Below are positions 1 through 44,973 of a stretch of 45,013 nucleotides of DNA, piece by piece; positions within the stretch are counted from its first letter, which is position 1; each line of letters begins with the position of its first letter. The notes below the pieces were generated by a model. It saw nothing but the letters and a program-made list of their open reading frames with translations, did no database searches and was not told where the DNA came from. Origin of the DNA: Dhillonvirus LM40P1; the sequence record OZ035811.1; one strand, written 5' to 3'. The position numbers were made by a program, and so were the translations under genes.

Positions 1-29
1 CGGCGCATATGCATAAAGGGGTTATTATC

Positions 30-581
30 ATGGCAGAAATCAAGGTAAAAGGCCGTCGTGCGAAGTTAGACGGGCGAGTCGCAGTCACTCCACGCCGCAA
101 ACCGGGCGAGCAAACCGAACACACCAATCTCGGACCTGAAATCGAGTACGGCAAACGCCGGAAAGGGGGCAAGTGTGGTCGTCCTACTGATTATCGGTCT
201 GTTTATTGTCGCCAGTTGCGAGATTATTTTGCTTCAGCCGACGCATGGCAAGTCAACTACTCGGACAAGGGTGCGGCGCAAGTTATCCCACGTAACAAGA
301 TGCCAACACTTGGGCGCTTTGCGGCGGAAATCGGGGTAGGCGTAGCATGTCTGTATCGCTGGGCGCGTAAGCACGAAGAATTTGCCGAGGCGATGGCGGA
401 CGCGATGGAACTGCAAAAGACCTTTCTCATGGAAGCGGGTGGCGTGACTATTGCTGCGGGCTTTGCTGCATTCCTGCTTAAAGCCAACCACGGCGTACGC
501 GACGATGCACCGCTGGAAGATGACGACGATGATAACGGCGACGTCACTGTGGAGCCAGCCGGTAAAGGGCAGGGCGAGTAA
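30..581 (+). CDS. putative terminase small subunit
   Basis: ATG at 30 with AAAGGGG SD 8 nt upstream; basic N-terminus, acidic C-terminus; sits immediately upstream of and overlaps (TAATG) the large terminase gene. Confidence 0.45.
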   Translation: MAEIKVKGRRAKLDGRVAVTPRRKPGEQTEHTNLGPEIEYGKRRKGGKCGRPTDYRSVYCRQLRDYFASADAWQVNYSDKGAAQVIPRNKMPTLGRFAAEIGVGVACLYRWARKHEEFAEAMADAMELQKTFLMEAGGVTIAAGFAAFLLKANHGVRDDAPLEDDDDDNGDVTVEPAGKGQGE

Positions 582-1966
582 TGCGTAACTACGCGGCAGA
601 GCACCGCGCACTAGATCGCAAGCTGGCGAAACGCAACCGTCCGCCTAAACCTACCCGTGTAGCGCAAGCGGTCCGGCTATACCAGCCGGATTGCCTGCCG
701 CACCAGGTAGAGCTACTCCGCGACACGAAGACCAAAATCCTCGGCCTGTGTTCCGGCTTCGGCGGTGGAAAGTCATGGTCGGCGGCCCGTAAAGTCGTCC
801 AGCTTCTGTGCCTGAATCCTGGCTATGACGGCATTGTGACCGAGCCGACAATCCCGCTTCTGGTTAAAATCATGTACCCGGAGCTAGAGAAGTCTTTCGA
901 CGAGGCCGGTTTGCGCTGGAAGTTCAATAAACAGGATAAGATTTATAACGTACTGGTGAAGGGTAAATGGACCCGCGTAATTTGCGAGTCAATGGAGAAC
1001 TACACCCGCTTGATCGGTATTAACGCCGCGTGGATTGTTGCCGATGAGTTCGACACCACGAAGCAGGACGTCGCTATGGCGGCGTATCACAAGCTACTCG
1101 GTCGTTTGCGTGCCGGTAATGTGCGTCAGTTCGTCATCGTATCCACGCCAGAAGGCTTCCGGGCGATGTATCAGATTTTCGAAGTGGAGAAGGATAGCCA
1201 GAAACGTCTGATCCGGGCGAAGACTACCGACAACTTCCACTTACCGCCAGACTTCATCGACACGCTGCGAAGCCAGTACCCGGCAAACCTGATTGACGCA
1301 TACCTGGACGGTAAATTCGTCAACCTTACATCAGGTGCGGTGTACAAGATGTTCGACCGTGAGCAGAACGCCAGTACCGAGGAAGTGCAGCCAGAAGACA
1401 CGCTAATCATTGGCATGGACTTTAACGTCACGAAGATGGCGGCTGTGGTGTACGTCAGACGGCAGCGAGTCACGGAGGCGAAGGAGTTCCGCGACGAAAT
1501 CCACGCAGTCGATGAGTTTGTTGACTTGTTCGATACGCCTGCAATGATTGACGAGATTGAGGCACGCTACCCCGATCATTGTGCTGCCGGTAAGGTGGTG
1601 ATTTACCCGGATAGCAGTGGCAAGTCCCGTAAGACGGTCAACGCGTCCTCTTCGGATATTGCACAACTGGAAGACGCAGGCTTTGAGGTGGAATATGACA
1701 GCGTTAACCCGCCGGTAAAAGACCGCCTGATTGCCATGAATACGATGATGTGTAACTCGAAGGGTGTGCGTCAGTATTTTGTGAATATGGCTAAATGCCC
1801 TACACTGGCAAAATGTTTAGAACAGCAGGTTTACGACCTGAAGAAAGGCGAGCCGGATAAAACGGCCGGTGTGGACCACATGAATGACGCCGCGGGCTAT
1901 CCGATTGTGCACCTGTTCCCTGTGATTCGACCGATTGCCGTTGTTCCGACCGTCGATTTCTACTAA
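581..1966 (+). CDS. terL: terminase large subunit
   Basis: Walker A-like GFGGGKSW and Walker B-like WIVADEFD in the translation; position ahead of portal. Confidence 0.8.
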   Translation: MRNYAAEHRALDRKLAKRNRPPKPTRVAQAVRLYQPDCLPHQVELLRDTKTKILGLCSGFGGGKSWSAARKVVQLLCLNPGYDGIVTEPTIPLLVKIMYPELEKSFDEAGLRWKFNKQDKIYNVLVKGKWTRVICESMENYTRLIGINAAWIVADEFDTTKQDVAMAAYHKLLGRLRAGNVRQFVIVSTPEGFRAMYQIFEVEKDSQKRLIRAKTTDNFHLPPDFIDTLRSQYPANLIDAYLDGKFVNLTSGAVYKMFDREQNASTEEVQPEDTLIIGMDFNVTKMAAVVYVRRQRVTEAKEFRDEIHAVDEFVDLFDTPAMIDEIEARYPDHCAAGKVVIYPDSSGKSRKTVNASSSDIAQLEDAGFEVEYDSVNPPVKDRLIAMNTMMCNSKGVRQYFVNMAKCPTLAKCLEQQVYDLKKGEPDKTAGVDHMNDAAGYPIVHLFPVIRPIAVVPTVDFY

Positions 1967-26363: not shown

Positions 26364-26585
26364 TTATTTTAATTCCTCAATCAAATTGGCACGGACAATA
26401 CGGGCCGAGAAGGCATCGCACACAAGATGGCAACGCGCCGTCATGACAAGCCAGCCGGTTAGGTCACGGCCTAGCAATTGCTCCGGGCGGCTTACCCGCA
26501 ATACTTTATTTCCAGGGAAAACCTGGTAACGTTTAATGATCTCATCCACGACGCGCGGACTGCGATCGACGACTAAGATATTCAT
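26364..26585 (-). CDS. hypothetical protein
   Basis: ATG at 26585 with AAGGAG SD; 73 aa. Confidence 0.45.
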   Translation of the reverse strand: MNILVVDRSPRVVDEIIKRYQVFPGNKVLRVSRPEQLLGRDLTGWLVMTARCHLVCDAFSARIVRANLIEELK

Positions 26586-27051
26586 GTAGTTCTCCTTCGC
26601 TCATTATCTTGATTTGTGCGCTGCCGTTTGGTGGCGCTTCTTCAAAGATTATCAGTTGCTGACACTTGTTGTTGCTCGGTCCAACCTCGCCAGTGACGGC
26701 ATGGATAAACCGGATCCGCCAGTCCAGCAATATAATCAGGTTGGCGGTTTTCCGCGCCAGTTTGGCCCACTTCGTGGTCGTGTCCTGGTTAAGCAGCATT
26801 ACCGTTTTGCGACCCTGCGATGCGCAAGTCACCCACGGCAGCGGGTCGGAATACGGCGGATTGCACCACTTCCACCCGTTTAACTCTGACCAGTCCGCAT
26901 CAAGCGCGCTGTGCTCTTTCGTGAAGTAGCGCGGTAGCAAATGGTTGTGGTCACTCGCCGCCATGTCGTAACGGAATTTAAACGCCTTGCGCAGTGGTTT
27001 GAATAAGGCTGGCGGAGTGCGCCAGCTATCCTTCTGCTCATTCTCCGTCAT
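26542..27051 (-). CDS. DNA N6-adenine methyltransferase (phage Dam-type)
   Basis: NPPY motif in WCNPPYSDPLPW; ATG at 27051 chosen over the upstream in-frame extension. Confidence 0.6.
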   Translation of the reverse strand: MTENEQKDSWRTPPALFKPLRKAFKFRYDMAASDHNHLLPRYFTKEHSALDADWSELNGWKWCNPPYSDPLPWVTCASQGRKTVMLLNQDTTTKWAKLARKTANLIILLDWRIRFIHAVTGEVGPSNNKCQQLIIFEEAPPNGSAQIKIMSEGELHEYLSRRSQSARRG

Positions 27052-27502
27052 GCTGCGGATCCAGTGCGTAAAGTGGGATCTGTTTGGCGCTTTCCCACAG
27101 GCGTTTAATCCTTTCCTGCTCGCCTTTACCCATCGGGCGCATGTCCGTACTATAGTTGCCGTTGGTGGTGTCACGCCACGCGATCAGCACCAGGTCTTTA
27201 CGGTCGATCTTCGTTGTTCGGCCTTTCGGACGGACGTATTCTTCAGCACGTTTGCACTGCTCGCGTAGCCCTTCGGCGGTTATCCGGGTGAGCGATACGG
27301 ATGTTGTGTACCCGGTGCGCTGCATAATGGTGATCAGTTCGCCCAGCAGTTCGAAGCGTTCCTCTAATTCCAGCAATTGCTTGTTGGTATCCTGGAATTT
27401 TTTATACATATCTTCGGCGTGGCTACGTGCTTCTTCCGCCTTCTCGCGGGCTTCCAGACACTGTGAAGCCCAGTACGCTTTTTCTTCTTGTAAAATTTTC
27501 AT
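27038..27502 (-). CDS. hypothetical protein
   Basis: ATG at 27502 with GGAGAC SD, TAATG overlap with upstream gene; charged coiled-coil-type N-terminus. Confidence 0.5.
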   Translation of the reverse strand: MKILQEEKAYWASQCLEAREKAEEARSHAEDMYKKFQDTNKQLLELEERFELLGELITIMQRTGYTTSVSLTRITAEGLREQCKRAEEYVRPKGRTTKIDRKDLVLIAWRDTTNGNYSTDMRPMGKGEQERIKRLWESAKQIPLYALDPQHDGE

Positions 27503-27825: not shown

Positions 27826-28149
27826 TTATTCGAAGAAATTTGGGTCGCTCATCACATCCACTAGATAAAGGTTGTTAAGGCGGTTGCCGTAATGGCCTGG
27901 CGTGCGCTGACGGCACACAACAGCGTAACCAGGGGGGATGGTATTTCCGGTCGCCAGAATCCACGCCACGCGCGCGCCGTTTAGTGATTTACCGTTGTAT
28001 TCTATGCGGGTGCCGCCATCTGCAGTGTTAAGGCTGCCAATCTTCTGACCGGTAGAATTGAGACGGATAACACCAGTCTGGCTATCGTAATTAAACAGTT
28101 GTTTGGTCAGTGCTACCGAAAAATCAATTGGATCAAAGATAGTGTTCAT
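27826..28149 (-). CDS. HNH endonuclease-like protein (possibly degenerate)
   Basis: Segment ARVAWILATGNTIPPGYAVV...GHYGNRLNNL resembles the HRLxW...IPxG...DHxNGN...NL pattern of phage HNH proteins. Confidence 0.4.
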   Translation of the reverse strand: MNTIFDPIDFSVALTKQLFNYDSQTGVIRLNSTGQKIGSLNTADGGTRIEYNGKSLNGARVAWILATGNTIPPGYAVVCRQRTPGHYGNRLNNLYLVDVMSDPNFFE

Positions 28150-28862
28150 TTTAAATTTTCCTCATTGACTGCAATTGCGAAGCCGCGCGGTGTGAGCGAC
28201 CTGATTAATTTAGTGCGGGCGGACTTACCACCGAGCAGACTATACTGTTTGGAGTAACCTTTTTCAACAAATACCGGCTTCTTCTCCGGCATCCTGAAGC
28301 CGTTCCCCGTCCATAAGCAAGTCAGCTTCGGATATGAATCACGCGCGTTGATATATTCCGGGAATAGCGGGTGCACATCATCTTCCGGCAGGTAGCCGCC
28401 ATACTCCCACGGGTTAAACGAGTGATCTGGCTTGCGCCACTGGGTGGATAGCACACTGCGCGGATTCTCTATCATATATGGCACTTCGAAGAAGTCACCG
28501 AGAAAGGCCGCTATCTTAGCGGTGCGCACTGCCTTAATCTGGAATGCTGGGTCTTTAGCGCGTTTGCGCGGGAAAGCTGGCGCGCCGCTAACTGCCAGGT
28601 CGGTGCACGGCGGAAAGGCGTAAATAATATCAGGCGTGCCAAACTCACCCTCCATAGCGCGGTCAACGAAGTCCAGATCGATAAACACGTTCTTATAACG
28701 AATGCCGCGCCCGTAAAGCCGGTAGTGATTGTAGGAGCCGTGGTCGGCCCCGTCGAAGTTAAAACAGGTGCACTTATGCCCCATCTCGGCAGCACGCTCG
28801 ATCATAAGGCCGCTGCCGTCGAATAATGACCAGATGTTTAGTATCCTAACTCGCTTATTCAC
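28146..28862 (-). CDS. mini DNA cytosine-C5 methyltransferase-like protein
   Basis: Motif I SLFDGSG, motif IV FPPC (Pro-Cys), motif VI IENP in canonical order and spacing; GTG start overlapping helicase stop (GTGA); only 238 aa. Confidence 0.5.
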   Translation of the reverse strand: MNKRVRILNIWSLFDGSGLMIERAAEMGHKCTCFNFDGADHGSYNHYRLYGRGIRYKNVFIDLDFVDRAMEGEFGTPDIIYAFPPCTDLAVSGAPAFPRKRAKDPAFQIKAVRTAKIAAFLGDFFEVPYMIENPRSVLSTQWRKPDHSFNPWEYGGYLPEDDVHPLFPEYINARDSYPKLTCLWTGNGFRMPEKKPVFVEKGYSKQYSLLGGKSARTKLIRSLTPRGFAIAVNEENLK

Positions 28863-30781: not shown

Positions 30782-31040
30782 CCAATAAATCAGCGTCGTG
30801 AATGTTGTCGATTACGCGAACGTCGGCCCCGCGCTTCGCCATGCGCTCATGTTCACGTACCTGGTGCGGCTTCGGCTTACCACCGGGGCGCTTCACTTCA
30901 ACGAATACGACTCTGCCGTTGATGATGATAATCAGGTCGGGCGCGCCGGTACGCCCTTCCCATGCCATTTTACGGCAGAATCCACCTGCCTCTTTTACCT
31001 CTTTCATCAGGTGACTTTGCACCTTGCCTTCAGGAGTCAT
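30762..31040 (-). CDS. VRR-NUC domain nuclease
   Basis: Segment VFVEVKRPGGKPKPHQVREHERMAKRGADV matches the VRR-NUC E.K...Q pattern; TAATG coupling to polymerase gene. Confidence 0.65.
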   Translation of the reverse strand: MTPEGKVQSHLMKEVKEAGGFCRKMAWEGRTGAPDLIIIINGRVVFVEVKRPGGKPKPHQVREHERMAKRGADVRVIDNIHDADLLVAELVA

Positions 31041-33328
31041 TATTTTCTGTACCTGTACATTATGTCGCCTTCAGCGGCGAGCGGGAAGCCCTTAGCCCAC
31101 ACCGGCAGATCGCACATTAACCGGCATAACTCTTCGGTCGTGTAATCGTCCGTGTCCGGCACTTCGGTGATTAATTCATCGTGCACCGACAGGACGATTT
31201 CGTATCCCGCCGCTTCGACGCCAGGCATTGCCCATGCGAGAATATCGCGGCACAGCGCCTGCACGATGTTCTCCGTCAGTTTGCCGCCGTAGGTGTACTG
31301 GAAGCCCCACTGGCGCGTCGTCTGATTCTCGCCCTGATATTTAATGCGGGTGCTGGTTTTCTTCTTGCCAGTATCCTCATCGATTTCAGTCGTGACAGAC
31401 AGCGCAATCCCCGGATAGCTCATGATACGACCGGACGGCAACTCCACTTTCAACCACCAGCCTGGCGCGTCCGGGTCGTCCCGCTCATCGTCAAACGTAG
31501 GGTCGTGCTTCGCCTTCGTGCGCATGATTTTAAGCGCCTGTTTGCCGTCTGGACGCACGTTAGCACCGGCCCAGTATGATTTGCCCGGATTGCGGATTGC
31601 GCACAGCACAGCGTCTTCCAGTTCGGCCCAGAATCTAACCGTTTCCGGGTGGGACTCACGCCACATACGCTTGATCGCATCGCAGGTAAGCCACACGTTC
31701 TTCGGCAGGATGTAAGTCGGTCGCTCGTCTTTCTTGCCAGGCTTCGGCGGACGCTTCGCTTCATTAATCCTCGCGTACTCGTACCCGCGTTTCGCTGCGG
31801 CCCATATGTGATCCGGGAACGTGCCTTTCATCACGTCTGCCATCGCATACAGGTCAAGACCAAGGTTTTTGGCAAACTGCAAGAACGCCGCAACGCCACC
31901 ACCATAGCCGAGGCCCAATTCACAGGCCTTACCGATCTGGCGGAGGTCTTTGCGGTTGGCCTTGATATAATCCGGGTCGAGGCCGAACATCTTACCGGCA
32001 GTTTCGCAATAAATATCGCGTCCCGCCTTAAAGACCATCAACGCAGTTTTCTCGCCCGCAATCCAGGCAAGGCCGCGTCCTTCCACGTTGGAGTAGTCCG
32101 CTACAACAAACTTCTTACCCTTAGCCGGGATAATGCAGCCGCGTACGGTCGATGCTGTCAGCTTAGATATGTCGTACGCCCAGTGTGCGGTCCCGCGTAA
32201 TAGGGAATTGATGCCGTTGGTTAGCATGTGCGACCGGACCCAAAACGACACGTCGCTTTCACCATCACGGCGCTTGATCTTGCCTTCGTGGTCGTCGCTG
32301 TACTCGCCACGCGCCAGGTTTTGAGGCTGAAAACCTTTACCGGCCCAGCGCAATGTTCGTTTAGCACCACCATACTGAAGACAACCACGGCGGCGACCGT
32401 CAGACGACAGACCGTTAACGAGCGGATTGTATTTGGTCGACGCCGTTGATGACGCACCGAGGCGCATTTCAATCAGAACTTTGCCCTCGTCCGGGAAGTC
32501 CGGGTCTTCCAGCAAATCATTCAGTGTGGATTTCTGCGCGTTATGGATAGTGAAAGCTGGCGCAATATCTCGTAACAACGGCAGGAAATCATTTCCGGTC
32601 AGCTTACCGCCAAACTTCTCCATCGCTTCTTCTTTCAGTTCTTCCTTGTGCGCTTCAACGGCCTTGATGGCGGCGTAGGCCAGTTCGGTGTCCACGTTGA
32701 AGCCGCGGTCGTTGATCAACTGGTCAATTGCCAGTATCTGGTCTTCCTTCGGAGTATTACCCCAATCCGGGATACGCCAGTATACTTCACGCATCGCGAT
32801 AATATCGAAGCGTGCATACTTGAGGAATTTGGCCCACTCTTCCGGGTGAGTCTCGCGAGTGTAGCGACGGACTTTGTAAGTCTTCGGCGTTGGCTTACAG
32901 AATCGCTTAATCAGCGCCTTGCCCGCTTTATCTTTCGCATGTTCAGCGTCAACGCCCAATACCTGGCATTGCATGTCAAGGCTGCCGGGGAGGGCGTGGC
33001 GGAAGGCCATAATCATGGTGTCTTCGATCTGGCAAACCGGCAGGTCAATACCCCACTTCTCACGGATAACCAGGCGGTCAAACAGGAGGCCGTTAGCCAT
33101 TACGATTTTTGCTTTCTTGCGGACTACCGCACGCAATGCCTTACGCAGTTCACTCGGCATCTTCGGCGATTCAGTAGCGTCCCACGTCTGAACACGGCCT
33201 TCATCAATGGCGTAGGTGCAGATCATGATTTCCGTGGTTGGGTGTTCTGCATACGCGTATGCGCCGACCTTCTTCAGATCAACGCCGCTAAACGTTTCGG
33301 TATCGAGGAATAGTCGTTCGAAGTTCAT
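31040..33328 (-). CDS. DNA polymerase I (family A) with 3'-5' exonuclease domain
   Basis: Exo motif LFLDTETFSG; pol motif A DYSNVEGR, motif B RQIGKACELGLGYGGG, motif C VHDELI; start at Met 42 of listed ORF (ATGA overlap). Confidence 0.85.
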   Translation of the reverse strand: MNFERLFLDTETFSGVDLKKVGAYAYAEHPTTEIMICTYAIDEGRVQTWDATESPKMPSELRKALRAVVRKKAKIVMANGLLFDRLVIREKWGIDLPVCQIEDTMIMAFRHALPGSLDMQCQVLGVDAEHAKDKAGKALIKRFCKPTPKTYKVRRYTRETHPEEWAKFLKYARFDIIAMREVYWRIPDWGNTPKEDQILAIDQLINDRGFNVDTELAYAAIKAVEAHKEELKEEAMEKFGGKLTGNDFLPLLRDIAPAFTIHNAQKSTLNDLLEDPDFPDEGKVLIEMRLGASSTASTKYNPLVNGLSSDGRRRGCLQYGGAKRTLRWAGKGFQPQNLARGEYSDDHEGKIKRRDGESDVSFWVRSHMLTNGINSLLRGTAHWAYDISKLTASTVRGCIIPAKGKKFVVADYSNVEGRGLAWIAGEKTALMVFKAGRDIYCETAGKMFGLDPDYIKANRKDLRQIGKACELGLGYGGGVAAFLQFAKNLGLDLYAMADVMKGTFPDHIWAAAKRGYEYARINEAKRPPKPGKKDERPTYILPKNVWLTCDAIKRMWRESHPETVRFWAELEDAVLCAIRNPGKSYWAGANVRPDGKQALKIMRTKAKHDPTFDDERDDPDAPGWWLKVELPSGRIMSYPGIALSVTTEIDEDTGKKKTSTRIKYQGENQTTRQWGFQYTYGGKLTENIVQALCRDILAWAMPGVEAAGYEIVLSVHDELITEVPDTDDYTTEELCRLMCDLPVWAKGFPLAAEGDIMYRYRK

Positions 33329-33495
33329 TGTTTCACCCTTACCACGGCCTCGGCGTCCCCTTTCAGAGAGTAGATGCCGTCGGTTATTGTGATTATGTCG
33401 TCGTTCTGTTTCACTTCGGCAACCGTGAAGTATTCGCCCAGGAATTTGGACCACACGCGCATTCCCGGTTTCACATCTTTAGCTTTAATTCTCAT
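33325..33495 (-). CDS. small protein (56 aa, KPGMRVW motif), unlisted short ORF
   Basis: ATG at 33495 with AGGACA SD; stop overlaps polymerase ATG; shares KPGxRVW with the 30291-30512 product. Confidence 0.4.
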   Translation of the reverse strand: MRIKAKDVKPGMRVWSKFLGEYFTVAEVKQNDDIITITDGIYSLKGDAEAVVRVKQ

Positions 33496-43036: not shown

Positions 43037-43444
43037 ATGTTAAAAAGTATTCTTGATCATAATGCGGACGCGCTTGACGCGTTGGCTAAAACGGACGACG
43101 CTGGCGCGCGTCGCATCATCGCAGACACCATCAGCCATGCCGGGGTGTTTGGTGCAAGCCTTCCGGGACCGAAGCCTGATGTGAAGGTGACAAGCGCAAC
43201 GGTATCGGTAGAGCCAGAGGCTGTTAAAATCGGCACCCAGTCTAAGGCTACGGTGGCGGTGCAACCGGCAGGGGCAACCGATAAATCCGGCGTGTGGATT
43301 AGTGGGTCGCCTACCATCGCCACCGTTGACGCTTCGGGTAATATCGACGGCAAAACTCCAGGTTCTGTCGATATTATTTGGGTGGCTAAGGATGGAAGCG
43401 GGGTGTCGGGCCGAAAAACGGTAACTGTGTCAAACTCCGAGTAA
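43037..43444 (+). CDS. Ig-like (Big_2-type) domain protein
   Basis: C-terminal beta-rich segment VTSATVSVEPEAVKIG...TVTVS typical of bacterial Ig-like domains. Confidence 0.45.
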   Translation: MLKSILDHNADALDALAKTDDAGARRIIADTISHAGVFGASLPGPKPDVKVTSATVSVEPEAVKIGTQSKATVAVQPAGATDKSGVWISGSPTIATVDASGNIDGKTPGSVDIIWVAKDGSGVSGRKTVTVSNSE

Positions 43445-43450
43445 AGATCA

Positions 43451-43476
43451 AGCCCGCAACTATGGCGGGCTTTTTA
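43451..43476 (+). terminator. rho-independent terminator
   Basis: AGCCCGC...GCGGGCT hairpin followed by TTTTT. Confidence 0.6.
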
Positions 43477-43562
43477 TTGCTTGACTTGCAACCAATTAAT
43501 AGCTCATACTTCTGTCGCCGTGGTATATTGATCGCGGTCAAACTGAATCAGGAAAATATACG

Positions 43563-44705
43563 ATGCACCCTCAAACCAAAATTACAGACGAGCAGTTGAT
43601 CGCCGAAATCCAGGCGGGAACGACCGCGAAAGATATTGCTAAGAAATACGGGATTGCACTGCGCAATGTTTATATGCGCAAAGCACGCTTATCTAAAAAG
43701 GGGATTGGGCACGGTAACGATGCCGTAATTCGTAAGCGGGTTGCCGATGGCTTCGGCGTGAAACGTGTATCCGCCCTGGTGCGTGGCAATGGCGAAGAGG
43801 TCATGTCGTGGGTTATCACCGAGCAGGACAAAGAGCGCCAGCTTGAGGCGATGCGTGCAGTGCTGGACGGCATGAACAGCGAAATCACACCGGCAGCACC
43901 CGTAAGCGCGCCACCAGTTCCGATCCAGGCGCTGGACCTGCTAAACCTGTACACCGTGTCCGACTTCCACCTGGGGATGCTGGCATGGGGAGAAGAGACT
44001 GGCGAGGATTGGGATATGGCTATTGCCGAAGACCTGTTCTACCGCTGGTTTGTCGAAGCCTTTGCCCGCGCCCCGGATGCCGGAACAGGCGTGATTAACA
44101 TCCTCGGTGATATGGCCCACTTTGACAGCCTGGATGCCGTTACCCCCGCAAGTGGTCACGTCCTGGATGCTGATACCCGCTATCAGAAGCTGGTGCGCTA
44201 CATGATTCGCATGGTCCGCCACGTTGTCGAACTGGCATTGCAGAAACACCACAAGGTTAAACTGCTAATCGTGCAGGGCAACCATGACGAAAGCGGTATG
44301 ATCTGGCTGGCTGAGATGTTCGCTACGCTGTACGAGAACGAGCCGCGCGTTGAGGTGGATACGTCGCCGGATGTCTATAAGATGGTCCAGCACGGTAAGA
44401 CTACGCTGTTCTTCCATCACGGGCACAAGGCTAAATTCGACGCTATCGAGCCGGTCATGATTTCGAAATTTCGTGAGGCGTTCGGATCCAGCCAGTACAG
44501 CTATGCTCACGTAGGCCACCTGCACCACCAGAAGATTATCGAATCGCGCAACATGATTGTTGAACAGCACCGCACGCTTGCCGCGAAGGATGCCTACGCC
44601 AGCCGAGGCGGTTGGATGAGCGGACGCAGTGCAAACGTGATAACCTATAGCGCGAACTACGGTGAAGTAGCACGCTTAACCATTAGCCCGGAGATGTTGA
44701 AATGA
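43563..44705 (+). CDS. HTH-containing metallophosphoesterase (calcineurin-like)
   Basis: Phosphoesterase motifs in order DFH, GDMAHFD, GNHDE, HHGH, GHLHH; N-terminal HTH-like segment. Confidence 0.6.
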   Translation: MHPQTKITDEQLIAEIQAGTTAKDIAKKYGIALRNVYMRKARLSKKGIGHGNDAVIRKRVADGFGVKRVSALVRGNGEEVMSWVITEQDKERQLEAMRAVLDGMNSEITPAAPVSAPPVPIQALDLLNLYTVSDFHLGMLAWGEETGEDWDMAIAEDLFYRWFVEAFARAPDAGTGVINILGDMAHFDSLDAVTPASGHVLDADTRYQKLVRYMIRMVRHVVELALQKHHKVKLLIVQGNHDESGMIWLAEMFATLYENEPRVEVDTSPDVYKMVQHGKTTLFFHHGHKAKFDAIEPVMISKFREAFGSSQYSYAHVGHLHHQKIIESRNMIVEQHRTLAAKDAYASRGGWMSGRSANVITYSANYGEVARLTISPEMLK

Positions 44706-44914
44706 TCAGACAAGTATTCATGAGCACGCAGGCCGCACGCCTGGCTGAATTACGCAAACAACTGGAAGGACTGCGCCGATTCGAGCGCACAGCGGCAGCG
44801 GTAGGCATGAGTATGTCGGAACGGATCGAGATACTCACTCAAATTCGCCACACAGAGGGCGCAATCGAGGCAGTTAAGGCTATGCTAACCCGATACTACG
44901 GTCGACCCGTTTAA
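44702..44914 (+). CDS. hypothetical protein
   Basis: ATGA overlap with upstream gene, GGAGATG SD; 70 aa. Confidence 0.4.
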   Translation: MIRQVFMSTQAARLAELRKQLEGLRRFERTAAAVGMSMSERIEILTQIRHTEGAIEAVKAMLTRYYGRPV

Positions 44915-44925
44915 TCTCACCACAG

Positions 44926-44947
44926 GCCCGCTTACGCGGGCTTTTTT
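44926..44947 (+). terminator. rho-independent terminator
   Basis: GCCCGC ttac GCGGGC hairpin followed by TTTTTT. Confidence 0.6.
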
Positions 44948-44973
44948 GTGTCTGCAATTCTCCCTGATATAAT
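44946..44973 (+). promoter_or_regulatory. extended -10 promoter (TGATATAAT) reading off the window end
   Basis: TGnTATAAT at 44965-44973; would drive the terminase genes if the genome is circularly permuted. Confidence 0.4.

What the first reader, a model, noticed from the sequence alone, without database searches (positions are those of the whole stretch)
43563..44705. HTH-metallophosphoesterase fusion protein upstream of the packaging genes
A 380 aa protein combines an N-terminal HTH-like segment with a complete set of calcineurin-like phosphoesterase motifs. Such enzymes in phages act as nucleases or phosphatases, and T5 A1 is reported to carry a metallophosphatase domain. Fusion to a DNA-binding domain suggests DNA targeting.
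Basis: partly seen in the sequence, partly recalled or inferred. Interest (0 to 1): 0.5.

Follow-up and report, generated by a model that had tools for sequence, protein, structure and literature searches.

The report
Phage HTH-tethered Mre11-like metallophosphoesterase
This gene of an E. coli Dhillonvirus encodes a DNA-binding helix-turn-helix module fused to an intact Mre11/gp47-like metal-dependent phosphoesterase; it belongs to a very common phage family (also in coliphage T1) that is routinely annotated but, as far as I could find, never tested, and it is most likely a stand-alone DNA nuclease rather than anything tied to DNA packaging.

The parts
43450..43472 (+). Intrinsic-terminator-like hairpin followed by a T-run; ends the preceding lysis/Ig-ORF transcription unit
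   Evidence: 8-bp stem, 6 GC pairs, T-tail; coordinates rechecked
43518..43530 (+). Conserved block CCGTGGTATATTG holding an extended -10-like element (TGGTATATT, 43521-43529), 34 nt upstream of the ATG; candidate sigma-70 promoter of the unit (inferred)
   Evidence: It is the only conserved stretch of the otherwise divergent upstream region when compared with phage Haito_Bas83. It is one of only 12 such sites on the + strand of the window. A weaker TTGACT-N18-CATACT match lies at 43481-43510.
43563..44705 (+). CDS, 380 aa: HTH-metallophosphoesterase, member of PHROG 704
43587..43697 (+). Residues 9-45: tri-helical HTH of the LuxR/GerE / sigma-70 region 4 / resolvase type
43752..43877 (+). Residues 64-105: conserved beta-hairpin (G77 and W83 nearly invariant) plus helix; possibly a wing or a connector to the catalytic domain; role unknown
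   Evidence: retained together with the HTH in the truncated phiJLA23 gp48
43923..44702 (+). Residues 121-380: calcineurin-like binuclear metallophosphoesterase core with motifs I-V and a family-specific conserved loop GD-x-x-H186-x-D188...T194-P195...L201-D202...R206
44702..44914 (+). 70-aa ORF overlapping the MPE stop (ATGA), PHROG 20931, unknown function; restricted to Dhillonviruses and always abutting the MPE gene
   Evidence: 74 phage records, all Dhillonvirus-like
44924..44943 (+). Intrinsic-terminator-like hairpin plus T-run closing the two-gene unit
44965..44973 (+). Perfect extended -10 consensus (TGATATAAT) after the terminator; candidate promoter of the terminase/structural operon. 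It marks the boundary and is not part of the unit.
   Evidence: terS/terL at 9..581 and 581..1966

Best explanation
The gene encodes a stand-alone nuclease built on a binuclear-metal phosphodiesterase core of the Mre11 / SbcD / T4 gp47 / PolD-DP1 type. Classical Mre11-type nucleases are brought to DNA by a Rad50/SbcC/gp46 ATPase. This enzyme instead carries its own LuxR/sigma-4/resolvase-type HTH (plus a beta-hairpin module) on a flexible linker, and that module tethers the catalytic domain to DNA. It is made from its own small transcription unit, probably by host RNA polymerase. It acts on DNA in the infected cell, most likely by degrading or resecting DNA: breaking down the host chromosome to feed the nucleotide pool, and/or processing ends for recombination-dependent replication. 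T4 gp46/47 combines those same two roles. Shown here: the ORF, the intact and conserved active site, the HTH fold, the fold and profile neighbours, the lack of an ATPase partner, the variable genomic position and the bracketing terminators. Inferred: metal-dependent nuclease activity, DNA binding by the HTH, the biological role and the timing of expression.
Confidence: 0.5

Rival explanations
1. The catalytic domain is a phosphodiesterase or phosphatase acting on small molecules or on nucleic-acid termini rather than a DNA-degrading nuclease. Examples would be healing 2',3'-cyclic or 3'-phosphate ends together with the neighbouring HAD_PNKP phosphatase, hydrolysing nucleotides, or destroying cyclic-nucleotide immune signals.
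Against: A DNA-binding HTH is hard to explain for a small-molecule enzyme. The best profile and fold neighbours are nucleases. No PADLOC or other hits link it to signalling systems. The P-loop neighbours are dNMP kinases (PHROG 139), not polynucleotide kinases. Dhillonviruses lack a phosphatase or ligase partner.
Confidence: 0.2
2. The protein is primarily a transcription or DNA-binding regulator. The HTH (plus hairpin) module is the functional part, and the MPE domain serves as a sensor, an oligomerisation scaffold or an accessory activity.
For: LuxR/sigma-4-type HTH. Rogunavirus phiJLA23 retains only the N-terminal 110 aa as an ORF, and BFVD holds several ~100-aa stand-alone homologues. A near-palindrome, TTGATCGCGGTCAA, overlaps the putative -10 of its own promoter (43528-43541).
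Against: All metal ligands and the catalytic His are invariant over deep divergence, which argues for a working enzyme. Campylobacter-phage members lack the N-terminal module altogether. The recognition helix is poorly conserved. No repeated operator-like sites were found near the gene.
Confidence: 0.12
3. It is a packaging accessory, for example a pac/cos-site recognition or cleavage factor working with terminase, as its position just before terS might suggest.
Against: The position is not conserved: T1, Webervirus, Jerseyvirus, Vibrio, Thermus, Campylobacter and others differ. A terminator and a separate promoter-like site lie between it and terS. The window has its own terS and terL.
Confidence: 0.04
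4. It is a Ser/Thr (or other) protein phosphatase like lambda NinI/PPase that modifies host or phage proteins; some database records annotate homologues this way.
For: It shares the MPE superfamily motifs. One Jerseyvirus record calls the homologue a 'putative serine/threonine protein phosphatase'.
Confidence: 0.04

Closest known systems
T4 gp47 (SbcD/Mre11-like nuclease subunit of the gp46/47 complex; recombination and host-DNA degradation)
   Same: Best profile match among the characterised proteins tested: 186 aligned columns covering motifs I-V plus a shared C-terminal 'TL-A-x-D...RG-W' stretch, E 1.8e-5, probability 78%. Both are phage-encoded MPEs.
   Different: A different PHROG (100 versus 704). 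gp47 needs the Rad50-like gp46, and no such ATPase is in the window. gp47 has no HTH. 78% probability falls short of proof of specific homology.
Archaeal PolD small subunit DP1 and Mre11/SbcD (solved structures 5ihe, 3qg5, 7dog, 6s6v)
   Different: 12-17% identity. No significant sequence match to any PDB chain, and E. coli SbcD aligns at one motif only. No OB fold or DP2 partner (DP1), and no capping domain or Rad50 partner (Mre11/SbcD). The window phage has a family-A polymerase, and T1 has no annotated DNA polymerase in the stretch examined, so the frequent 'DNA polymerase II small subunit' label is a fold echo and not a function.
T5 A1 (predicted metallophosphatase; necessary and sufficient for host DNA degradation; acts with the DNA-binding protein A2)
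   Same: A phage MPE with the same structural neighbours reported (DSB-repair nucleases, polymerase proofreading subunits). The pairing of an MPE with a DNA-binding function is conceptually parallel.
   Different: No detectable specific homology: hhalign 18% over 19 columns, PHROG 1745. The N-terminal module is unrelated to A2. A1 is a Demerecviridae hallmark and is essential; this family is spread over many lineages and is lost in some.
Cluster-A mycobacteriophage MPEs (A10ZJ24 Gp48; Bxb1 gp47)
   Same: Phage MPEs with five motifs. Gp48 degrades DNA in vitro, disrupts the host genome and acts as an anti-defence factor (PMC12287305).
   Different: About 255 aa with motif I at residue 10, so no HTH. 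PHROG 221. hhalign probability 3.5%.
PHROG 704 'DNA repair exonuclease' (T1 ST16, Webervirus, Jerseyvirus and Vibrio phage homologues)
   Same: Full-length membership (E 6e-161). 44.6% identity to T1 ST16 over 99% of the length. Same HTH + hairpin + MPE layout in most members.
   Different: Nothing of substance: this is the family it belongs to. The name is an annotation transfer; no member was found to have been tested.

Membership tests
Calcineurin-like metallophosphoesterase superfamily | Five motifs: D-x-H / G-D / G-N-H-[DE] / H / G-H-x-H providing the binuclear metal ligands | tested here: met
   D134/H136, G182/D183, G239-N240-H241-D242, H286, G318-H319-x-H321; invariant or at least 94% conserved in 86 homologues
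Calcineurin-like metallophosphoesterase superfamily | Alpha/beta sandwich MPE fold | tested here: met
Calcineurin-like metallophosphoesterase superfamily | Pfam Metallophos / Metallophos_2 above gathering score | tested here: not met
   23.4 bits versus cut-off 27, and 17.3 versus 21.5; only 21 and 14 of 86 homologues reach E<=0.01. This is a divergent subfamily, and the shortfall does not argue against superfamily membership given the motifs and the fold.
PHROG 704 ('DNA repair exonuclease') | Full-length HMM match | tested here: met
   E 6.4e-161, residues 5-380 on profile positions 2-390 of 390; T1, Vibrio, Thermus and Campylobacter homologues fall in the same PHROG
Mre11 / SbcD / T4 gp47 nucleases | Significant sequence/profile similarity across the nuclease domain | tested here: inconclusive
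Mre11 / SbcD / T4 gp47 nucleases | Partner SMC-like ATPase (Rad50 / SbcC / gp46) encoded alongside | tested here: not met
   No such protein among the window's ORFs: PHROG scan of the large early-region ORFs and a Walker-A scan; none next to the T1 homologue
Mre11 / SbcD / T4 gp47 nucleases | C-terminal capping domain after the phosphodiesterase core | tested here: not met
Mre11 / SbcD / T4 gp47 nucleases | Mn2+-dependent exo/endonuclease activity on DNA | not testable with these tools
   Needs purified protein; no published assay was found for any family member
Archaeal PolD DP1 / eukaryotic B-subunits | OB-fold plus MPE architecture and association with a catalytic polymerase subunit (DP2) | tested here: not met
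T5 A1 family (PHROG 1745) | Sequence/profile similarity to A1 | tested here: not met
   hhalign probability 18% over 19 columns around GNHD; A1 hits only PHROG 1745
Cluster-A mycobacteriophage MPE / Bxb1 gp47 (PHROG 221) | Sequence/profile similarity | tested here: not met
   hhalign probability 3.5%; PHROG 221
PPP-type Ser/Thr phosphatases (lambda PPase) | Sequence/profile and fold closeness | tested here: not met
LuxR/GerE - sigma-70 region 4 - resolvase type HTH | Tri-helical HTH fold with a recognition helix | tested here: met
LuxR/GerE - sigma-70 region 4 - resolvase type HTH | Pfam HTH family above gathering score | tested here: inconclusive
   Window protein: GerE 13.4 bits versus 23.5, HTH_7 13.6 versus 23.8. 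Homologues: Sigma70_r4_2 in 12 (best 1.5e-9), GerE in 6 (2.4e-8), HTH_1 in 17. Family profile versus PDB: GerE E 0.024.
LuxR/GerE - sigma-70 region 4 - resolvase type HTH | DNA binding | not testable with these tools
   Needs EMSA, SELEX or ChIP

The most novel reading that the evidence does not exclude
The HTH makes this a self-targeting, partner-free nuclease that recognises particular DNA: the host chromosome, a rival mobile element or a defence locus. It would then be a widespread host-takeover or counter-defence weapon of T1-like, Dhillonvirus, Jerseyvirus and many marine siphophages. It might account for T1's host-DNA breakdown, which I recall from the older literature but could not check here. 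The poorly conserved recognition helix would then reflect lineage-specific targets, and the coupled 70-aa ORF in Dhillonviruses could be a modulator or self-protection factor.
Probability: 0.15. Interest if true: 0.6.

Novelty: new member of a known kind. Interest (0 to 1): 0.3.

Why it matters
The family is one of the more common functionally untested enzymes of lytic siphophages: 2,061 phage records and more than 4,600 50%-identity clusters. It includes the classic phage T1 and many candidate therapeutic phages of E. coli, Klebsiella and Salmonella. If it is a stand-alone HTH-guided Mre11-like nuclease, it would show how phages dispense with Rad50. It would also add a third, independent lineage of phage metallophosphoesterases that attack DNA, next to T5 A1 and mycobacteriophage Gp48. 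That bears on host shut-off, nucleotide scavenging, transduction frequency and the triggering of DNA-damage- or nucleotide-sensing defence systems. For annotation, the labels 'DNA polymerase II small subunit', 'oxidoreductase', 'Ser/Thr phosphatase' and 'MurE ligase' on homologues are unfounded. As it stands, though, this is a correctly recognised, already catalogued domain architecture with no surprising feature.

Tried and rejected
(1) Direct PDB sequence search with the protein returned only spurious repeat-protein hits; the profile search gave nothing significant for the catalytic domain.

(2) Kinship with T5 A1 was rejected. The Rosetta-stone idea that the N-terminus corresponds to T5 A2 was rejected.

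(3) Kinship with the mycobacteriophage Gp48 / Bxb1 gp47 MPE was rejected.

(4) Ser/Thr phosphatase was rejected.

(5) A packaging role inferred from position was rejected, because synteny is not conserved and terminators intervene.

(6) A defence-system relationship: no PADLOC hit. NCBIfam gave only a sub-threshold touch of PdeM at the GNHD motif.

(7) The 70-aa downstream ORF as a family-wide partner was rejected; it occurs only in Dhillonviruses and has no Pfam or NCBIfam family.

(8) Operator-like repeats around the promoter: none found. The single near-palindrome is noted only as a lead.

(9) Literature: ten full-text searches found no experimental work on this family. The Metis and PUA-Cal-HAD papers concern host defence MPEs and T-even denA, not this protein.

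Context was therefore sampled lineage by lineage rather than counted systematically.

Full report
**Observation.** The ORF exists exactly as described: 43563..44705, + strand, ATG start, 380 aa. The five metallophosphoesterase (MPE) motifs are all present:
- I: D134-x-H136
- II: G182-D183
- III: G239-N240-H241-D242
- IV: H285/H286
- V: G318-H319-x-H321

The window is essentially a complete Dhillonvirus genome (HK578-like E. coli siphophage). The protein is 100% identical to that of Dhillonvirus LM40P1 and about 96% identical to dozens of Dhillonvirus proteins. Those are annotated variously as 'DNA repair exonuclease', 'calcineurin-like phosphoesterase', 'DNA polymerase II small subunit' or hypothetical. 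Terminase genes lie at 9..581 and 581..1966, so the gene is 'upstream of the packaging genes' once the window ends are joined.

**Family.** The protein is a full-length member of PHROG 704 (E 6e-161). tblastn finds it in 2,061 phage records: Escherichia 560, Klebsiella 468, Salmonella 373, Vibrio 254 and others. These include coliphage T1 (ST16, 44.6% identity over 99% of the length). An exhaustive HMMER search of 50%-identity cluster representatives returns 4,654 hits, most of them 370-420 aa. In an alignment of 86 members at 32-81% identity to the query, D134, H136, G182, D183, N240, H241, H286, G318 and H321 are invariant and H319 is present in 81/86. A family-specific loop between motifs II and III (H186, D188, T194, P195, L201, D202, R206) is also nearly invariant. 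Pfam's generic Metallophos models score below their gathering thresholds, so this is a divergent subfamily.

**Structure.** AlphaFold2 on the family alignment gives a confident model (pLDDT 93.5). It contains:
- three helices (9-17, 22-29, 33-45)
- a short linker
- a beta-hairpin (64-73 / 79-88) with nearly invariant G77 and W83
- a helix (90-105)
- a Pro-rich linker
- the MPE sandwich (121-380), with no further domain

**Relationship to characterised enzymes.** I compared the family profile with single sequences using hhalign.

| Comparison | Result |
|---|---|
| T4 gp47 (SbcD-like; recombination and host-DNA degradation) | E 1.8e-5, probability 78%, 186 columns across all motifs plus a shared C-terminal stretch |
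| E. coli SbcD | 3%, GNHD motif only |
| T5 A1 | 18%, 19 columns |
| Bxb1 gp47 | 3.5% |
| lambda Ser/Thr phosphatase | 0.5% |
| T5 A2 | about 1% |

T5 A1, Bxb1 gp47 and T4 gp47 fall in PHROGs 1745, 221 and 100 respectively. The family is thus its own lineage. It is closest to the Mre11/SbcD/gp47-DP1 nuclease branch by fold and, tentatively, by profile, but it is not demonstrably a member. Two defining features of that branch are absent. There is no Rad50/SbcC/gp46-type ATPase in the window or next to T1 ST16, and there is no capping domain.

**Genomic anatomy and context.** In the window the gene and an overlapping 70-aa ORF (44702..44914, ATGA overlap; PHROG 20931, unknown function) sit between two terminator-like hairpins, 43450-43472 and 44924-44943. 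Upstream, the only block conserved with phage Haito_Bas83 is CCGTGGTATATTG (43518-43530), which contains an extended -10-like TGGTATATT. A perfect TGATATAAT follows the downstream terminator, ahead of terS. Only 12 such sites exist on the + strand. The pair therefore looks like an insulated accessory unit read by host RNA polymerase; this is an inference. The 70-aa ORF occurs only in Dhillonviruses (74 records).

Elsewhere the gene's position varies:

| Lineage | Position / neighbours |
|---|---|
| T1 | between the Dam-methylase region and an HNH gene plus the lysis cassette |
| Webervirus, Yersinia phage 646 | immediately followed by a HAD_PNKP 3'-phosphatase and a dNMP kinase |
| Thermus phage Lalka27a | followed by an NT5C deoxynucleotidase and a DNMK kinase |
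| Metagenomic contig L024 | after exonuclease VIII plus a Sak4-like ATPase |
| Metagenomic contig L020 | after a primase-helicase |
| Metagenomic contig L026 | between a FEN/PIF1-helicase pair and a MazG-like gene |
| Campylobacter phage F371 | after DNA ligase and a resolvase |
| RDJL Phi 1 | near RNR |
| Salicola SCTP-2 | near dCMP deaminase |
| RcIroh | after the lysis cassette |
| Jerseyvirus | inside tail genes |
| Metagenomic contigs L016, L023 | inside head genes |

The position next to terS is therefore a Dhillonvirus peculiarity. The recurrent theme is DNA replication, recombination and nucleotide salvage.

**Interpretation.** The best-supported reading (confidence about 0.5) is a metal-dependent DNA nuclease of Mre11/gp47/DP1 type. 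It carries its own HTH tether instead of relying on a Rad50-like partner. It would be used as an accessory function for breaking down or resecting DNA during lytic growth: host-chromosome degradation feeding dNMP salvage and/or end processing for recombination-dependent replication. T4 gp46/47 combines those same two roles.

Precedents for phage MPEs that destroy host DNA exist but belong to unrelated families. T5 A1 is necessary and sufficient for host DNA degradation (bioRxiv 10.64898/2026.04.02.716235). Mycobacteriophage A10ZJ24 Gp48 shows nuclease activity in vitro and has an anti-defence role (PMC12287305).

The weaknesses are real:
- No biochemical data exist for any member.
- The SbcD control fails.
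- The recognition helix is poorly conserved.
- Copies are truncated or split in some phages (phiJLA23 keeps only the HTH-hairpin module; RDJL Phi 1 is split), which points to dispensability.

Rivals are an end-healing or small-molecule phosphodiesterase (0.2), a regulator whose HTH is the main actor (0.12), a packaging factor (0.04) and a protein phosphatase (0.04).

**Novelty and verdict.** The T5 A1 link is only an analogy, and the packaging context is not meaningful. The architecture is already catalogued (PHROG 704, and NCBI names such as 'winged helix-turn-helix domain-containing protein' and 'metallophosphoesterase'), and identical proteins are public. The family nonetheless appears never to have been tested, despite being present in T1 and thousands of phages. 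That makes it a reasonable biochemical target but not a surprising finding. I score interest at 0.3 and rate it a new member of a known kind.

Noticed in passing
window 43037-43444 (+): The 135-aa ORF directly after the endolysin combines an N-terminal 49 aa matching PHROG 11068 with an Ig-like domain of the kind found on tail and capsid decoration proteins. Phage Haito_Bas83 has only a 40-aa ORF at the equivalent place. No spanin was recognised in this lysis cassette.
   Followed up: partly
window 31040-33454 (-), residues ~506-600: The family-A DNA polymerase ORF (804 aa) has an internal segment matching PHROG 93 'endonuclease' (E 2e-7). This may be an inserted endonuclease-like or mobile segment within the polymerase.
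   Followed up: no
L002 6201-6683 (T1 ST15); L008 5159-5659 (Jerseyvirus Ent2 gp22); L003 6010-6519 (Vibrio phage 97E28-1b): A free-standing HNH_3 endonuclease gene lies immediately downstream of the MPE gene in three unrelated lineages. This is probably homing-endonuclease insertion beside a conserved gene, but a functional pairing was not excluded.
   Followed up: partly
L004 2989-3321 (phiJLA23 gp48); L014 1058-2330 (RDJL Phi 1 gp04/gp05): Natural truncation and splitting occur. phiJLA23 retains only the N-terminal 110 aa (HTH plus hairpin) with the catalytic domain deleted, and RDJL Phi 1 carries the gene as two ORFs. BFVD also lists several ~100-150-aa fragments.
   Followed up: partly
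L012 4168-5219; L011 4220-5278; L007 4812-6243: A three-gene string, MPE then HAD phosphatase (PNKP-type or NT5C-type) then dNMP kinase, recurs in Webervirus, Yersinia phage 646 and a Thermus phage. [quoted passage not shown]
   Followed up: partly
window 43521-43529 and 44965-44973 (+): Extended -10-like elements (TGGTATATT, TGATATAAT) sit right after the two terminator-like hairpins. Only 12 such sites occur on the + strand of the 45-kb window. A near-palindrome, TTGATCGCGGTCAA (43528-43541), overlaps the first one.
   Followed up: partly
window 26542-27174 (-) and 28146-28862 (-): Two separate DNA methyltransferase genes (PHROGs 111 and 757) lie in the early region. DNA methylases also neighbour the MPE gene in T1, Webervirus, RcIroh and a Flavobacterium phage.
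   Followed up: no
public records of homologues: Annotation of this family is inconsistent, with several labels that have no support here: 'DNA polymerase II small subunit', 'oxidoreductase', 'UDP-N-acetylmuramoylalanyl-D-glutamate--2,6-diaminopimelate ligase' and 'serine/threonine protein phosphatase'.
   Followed up: yes
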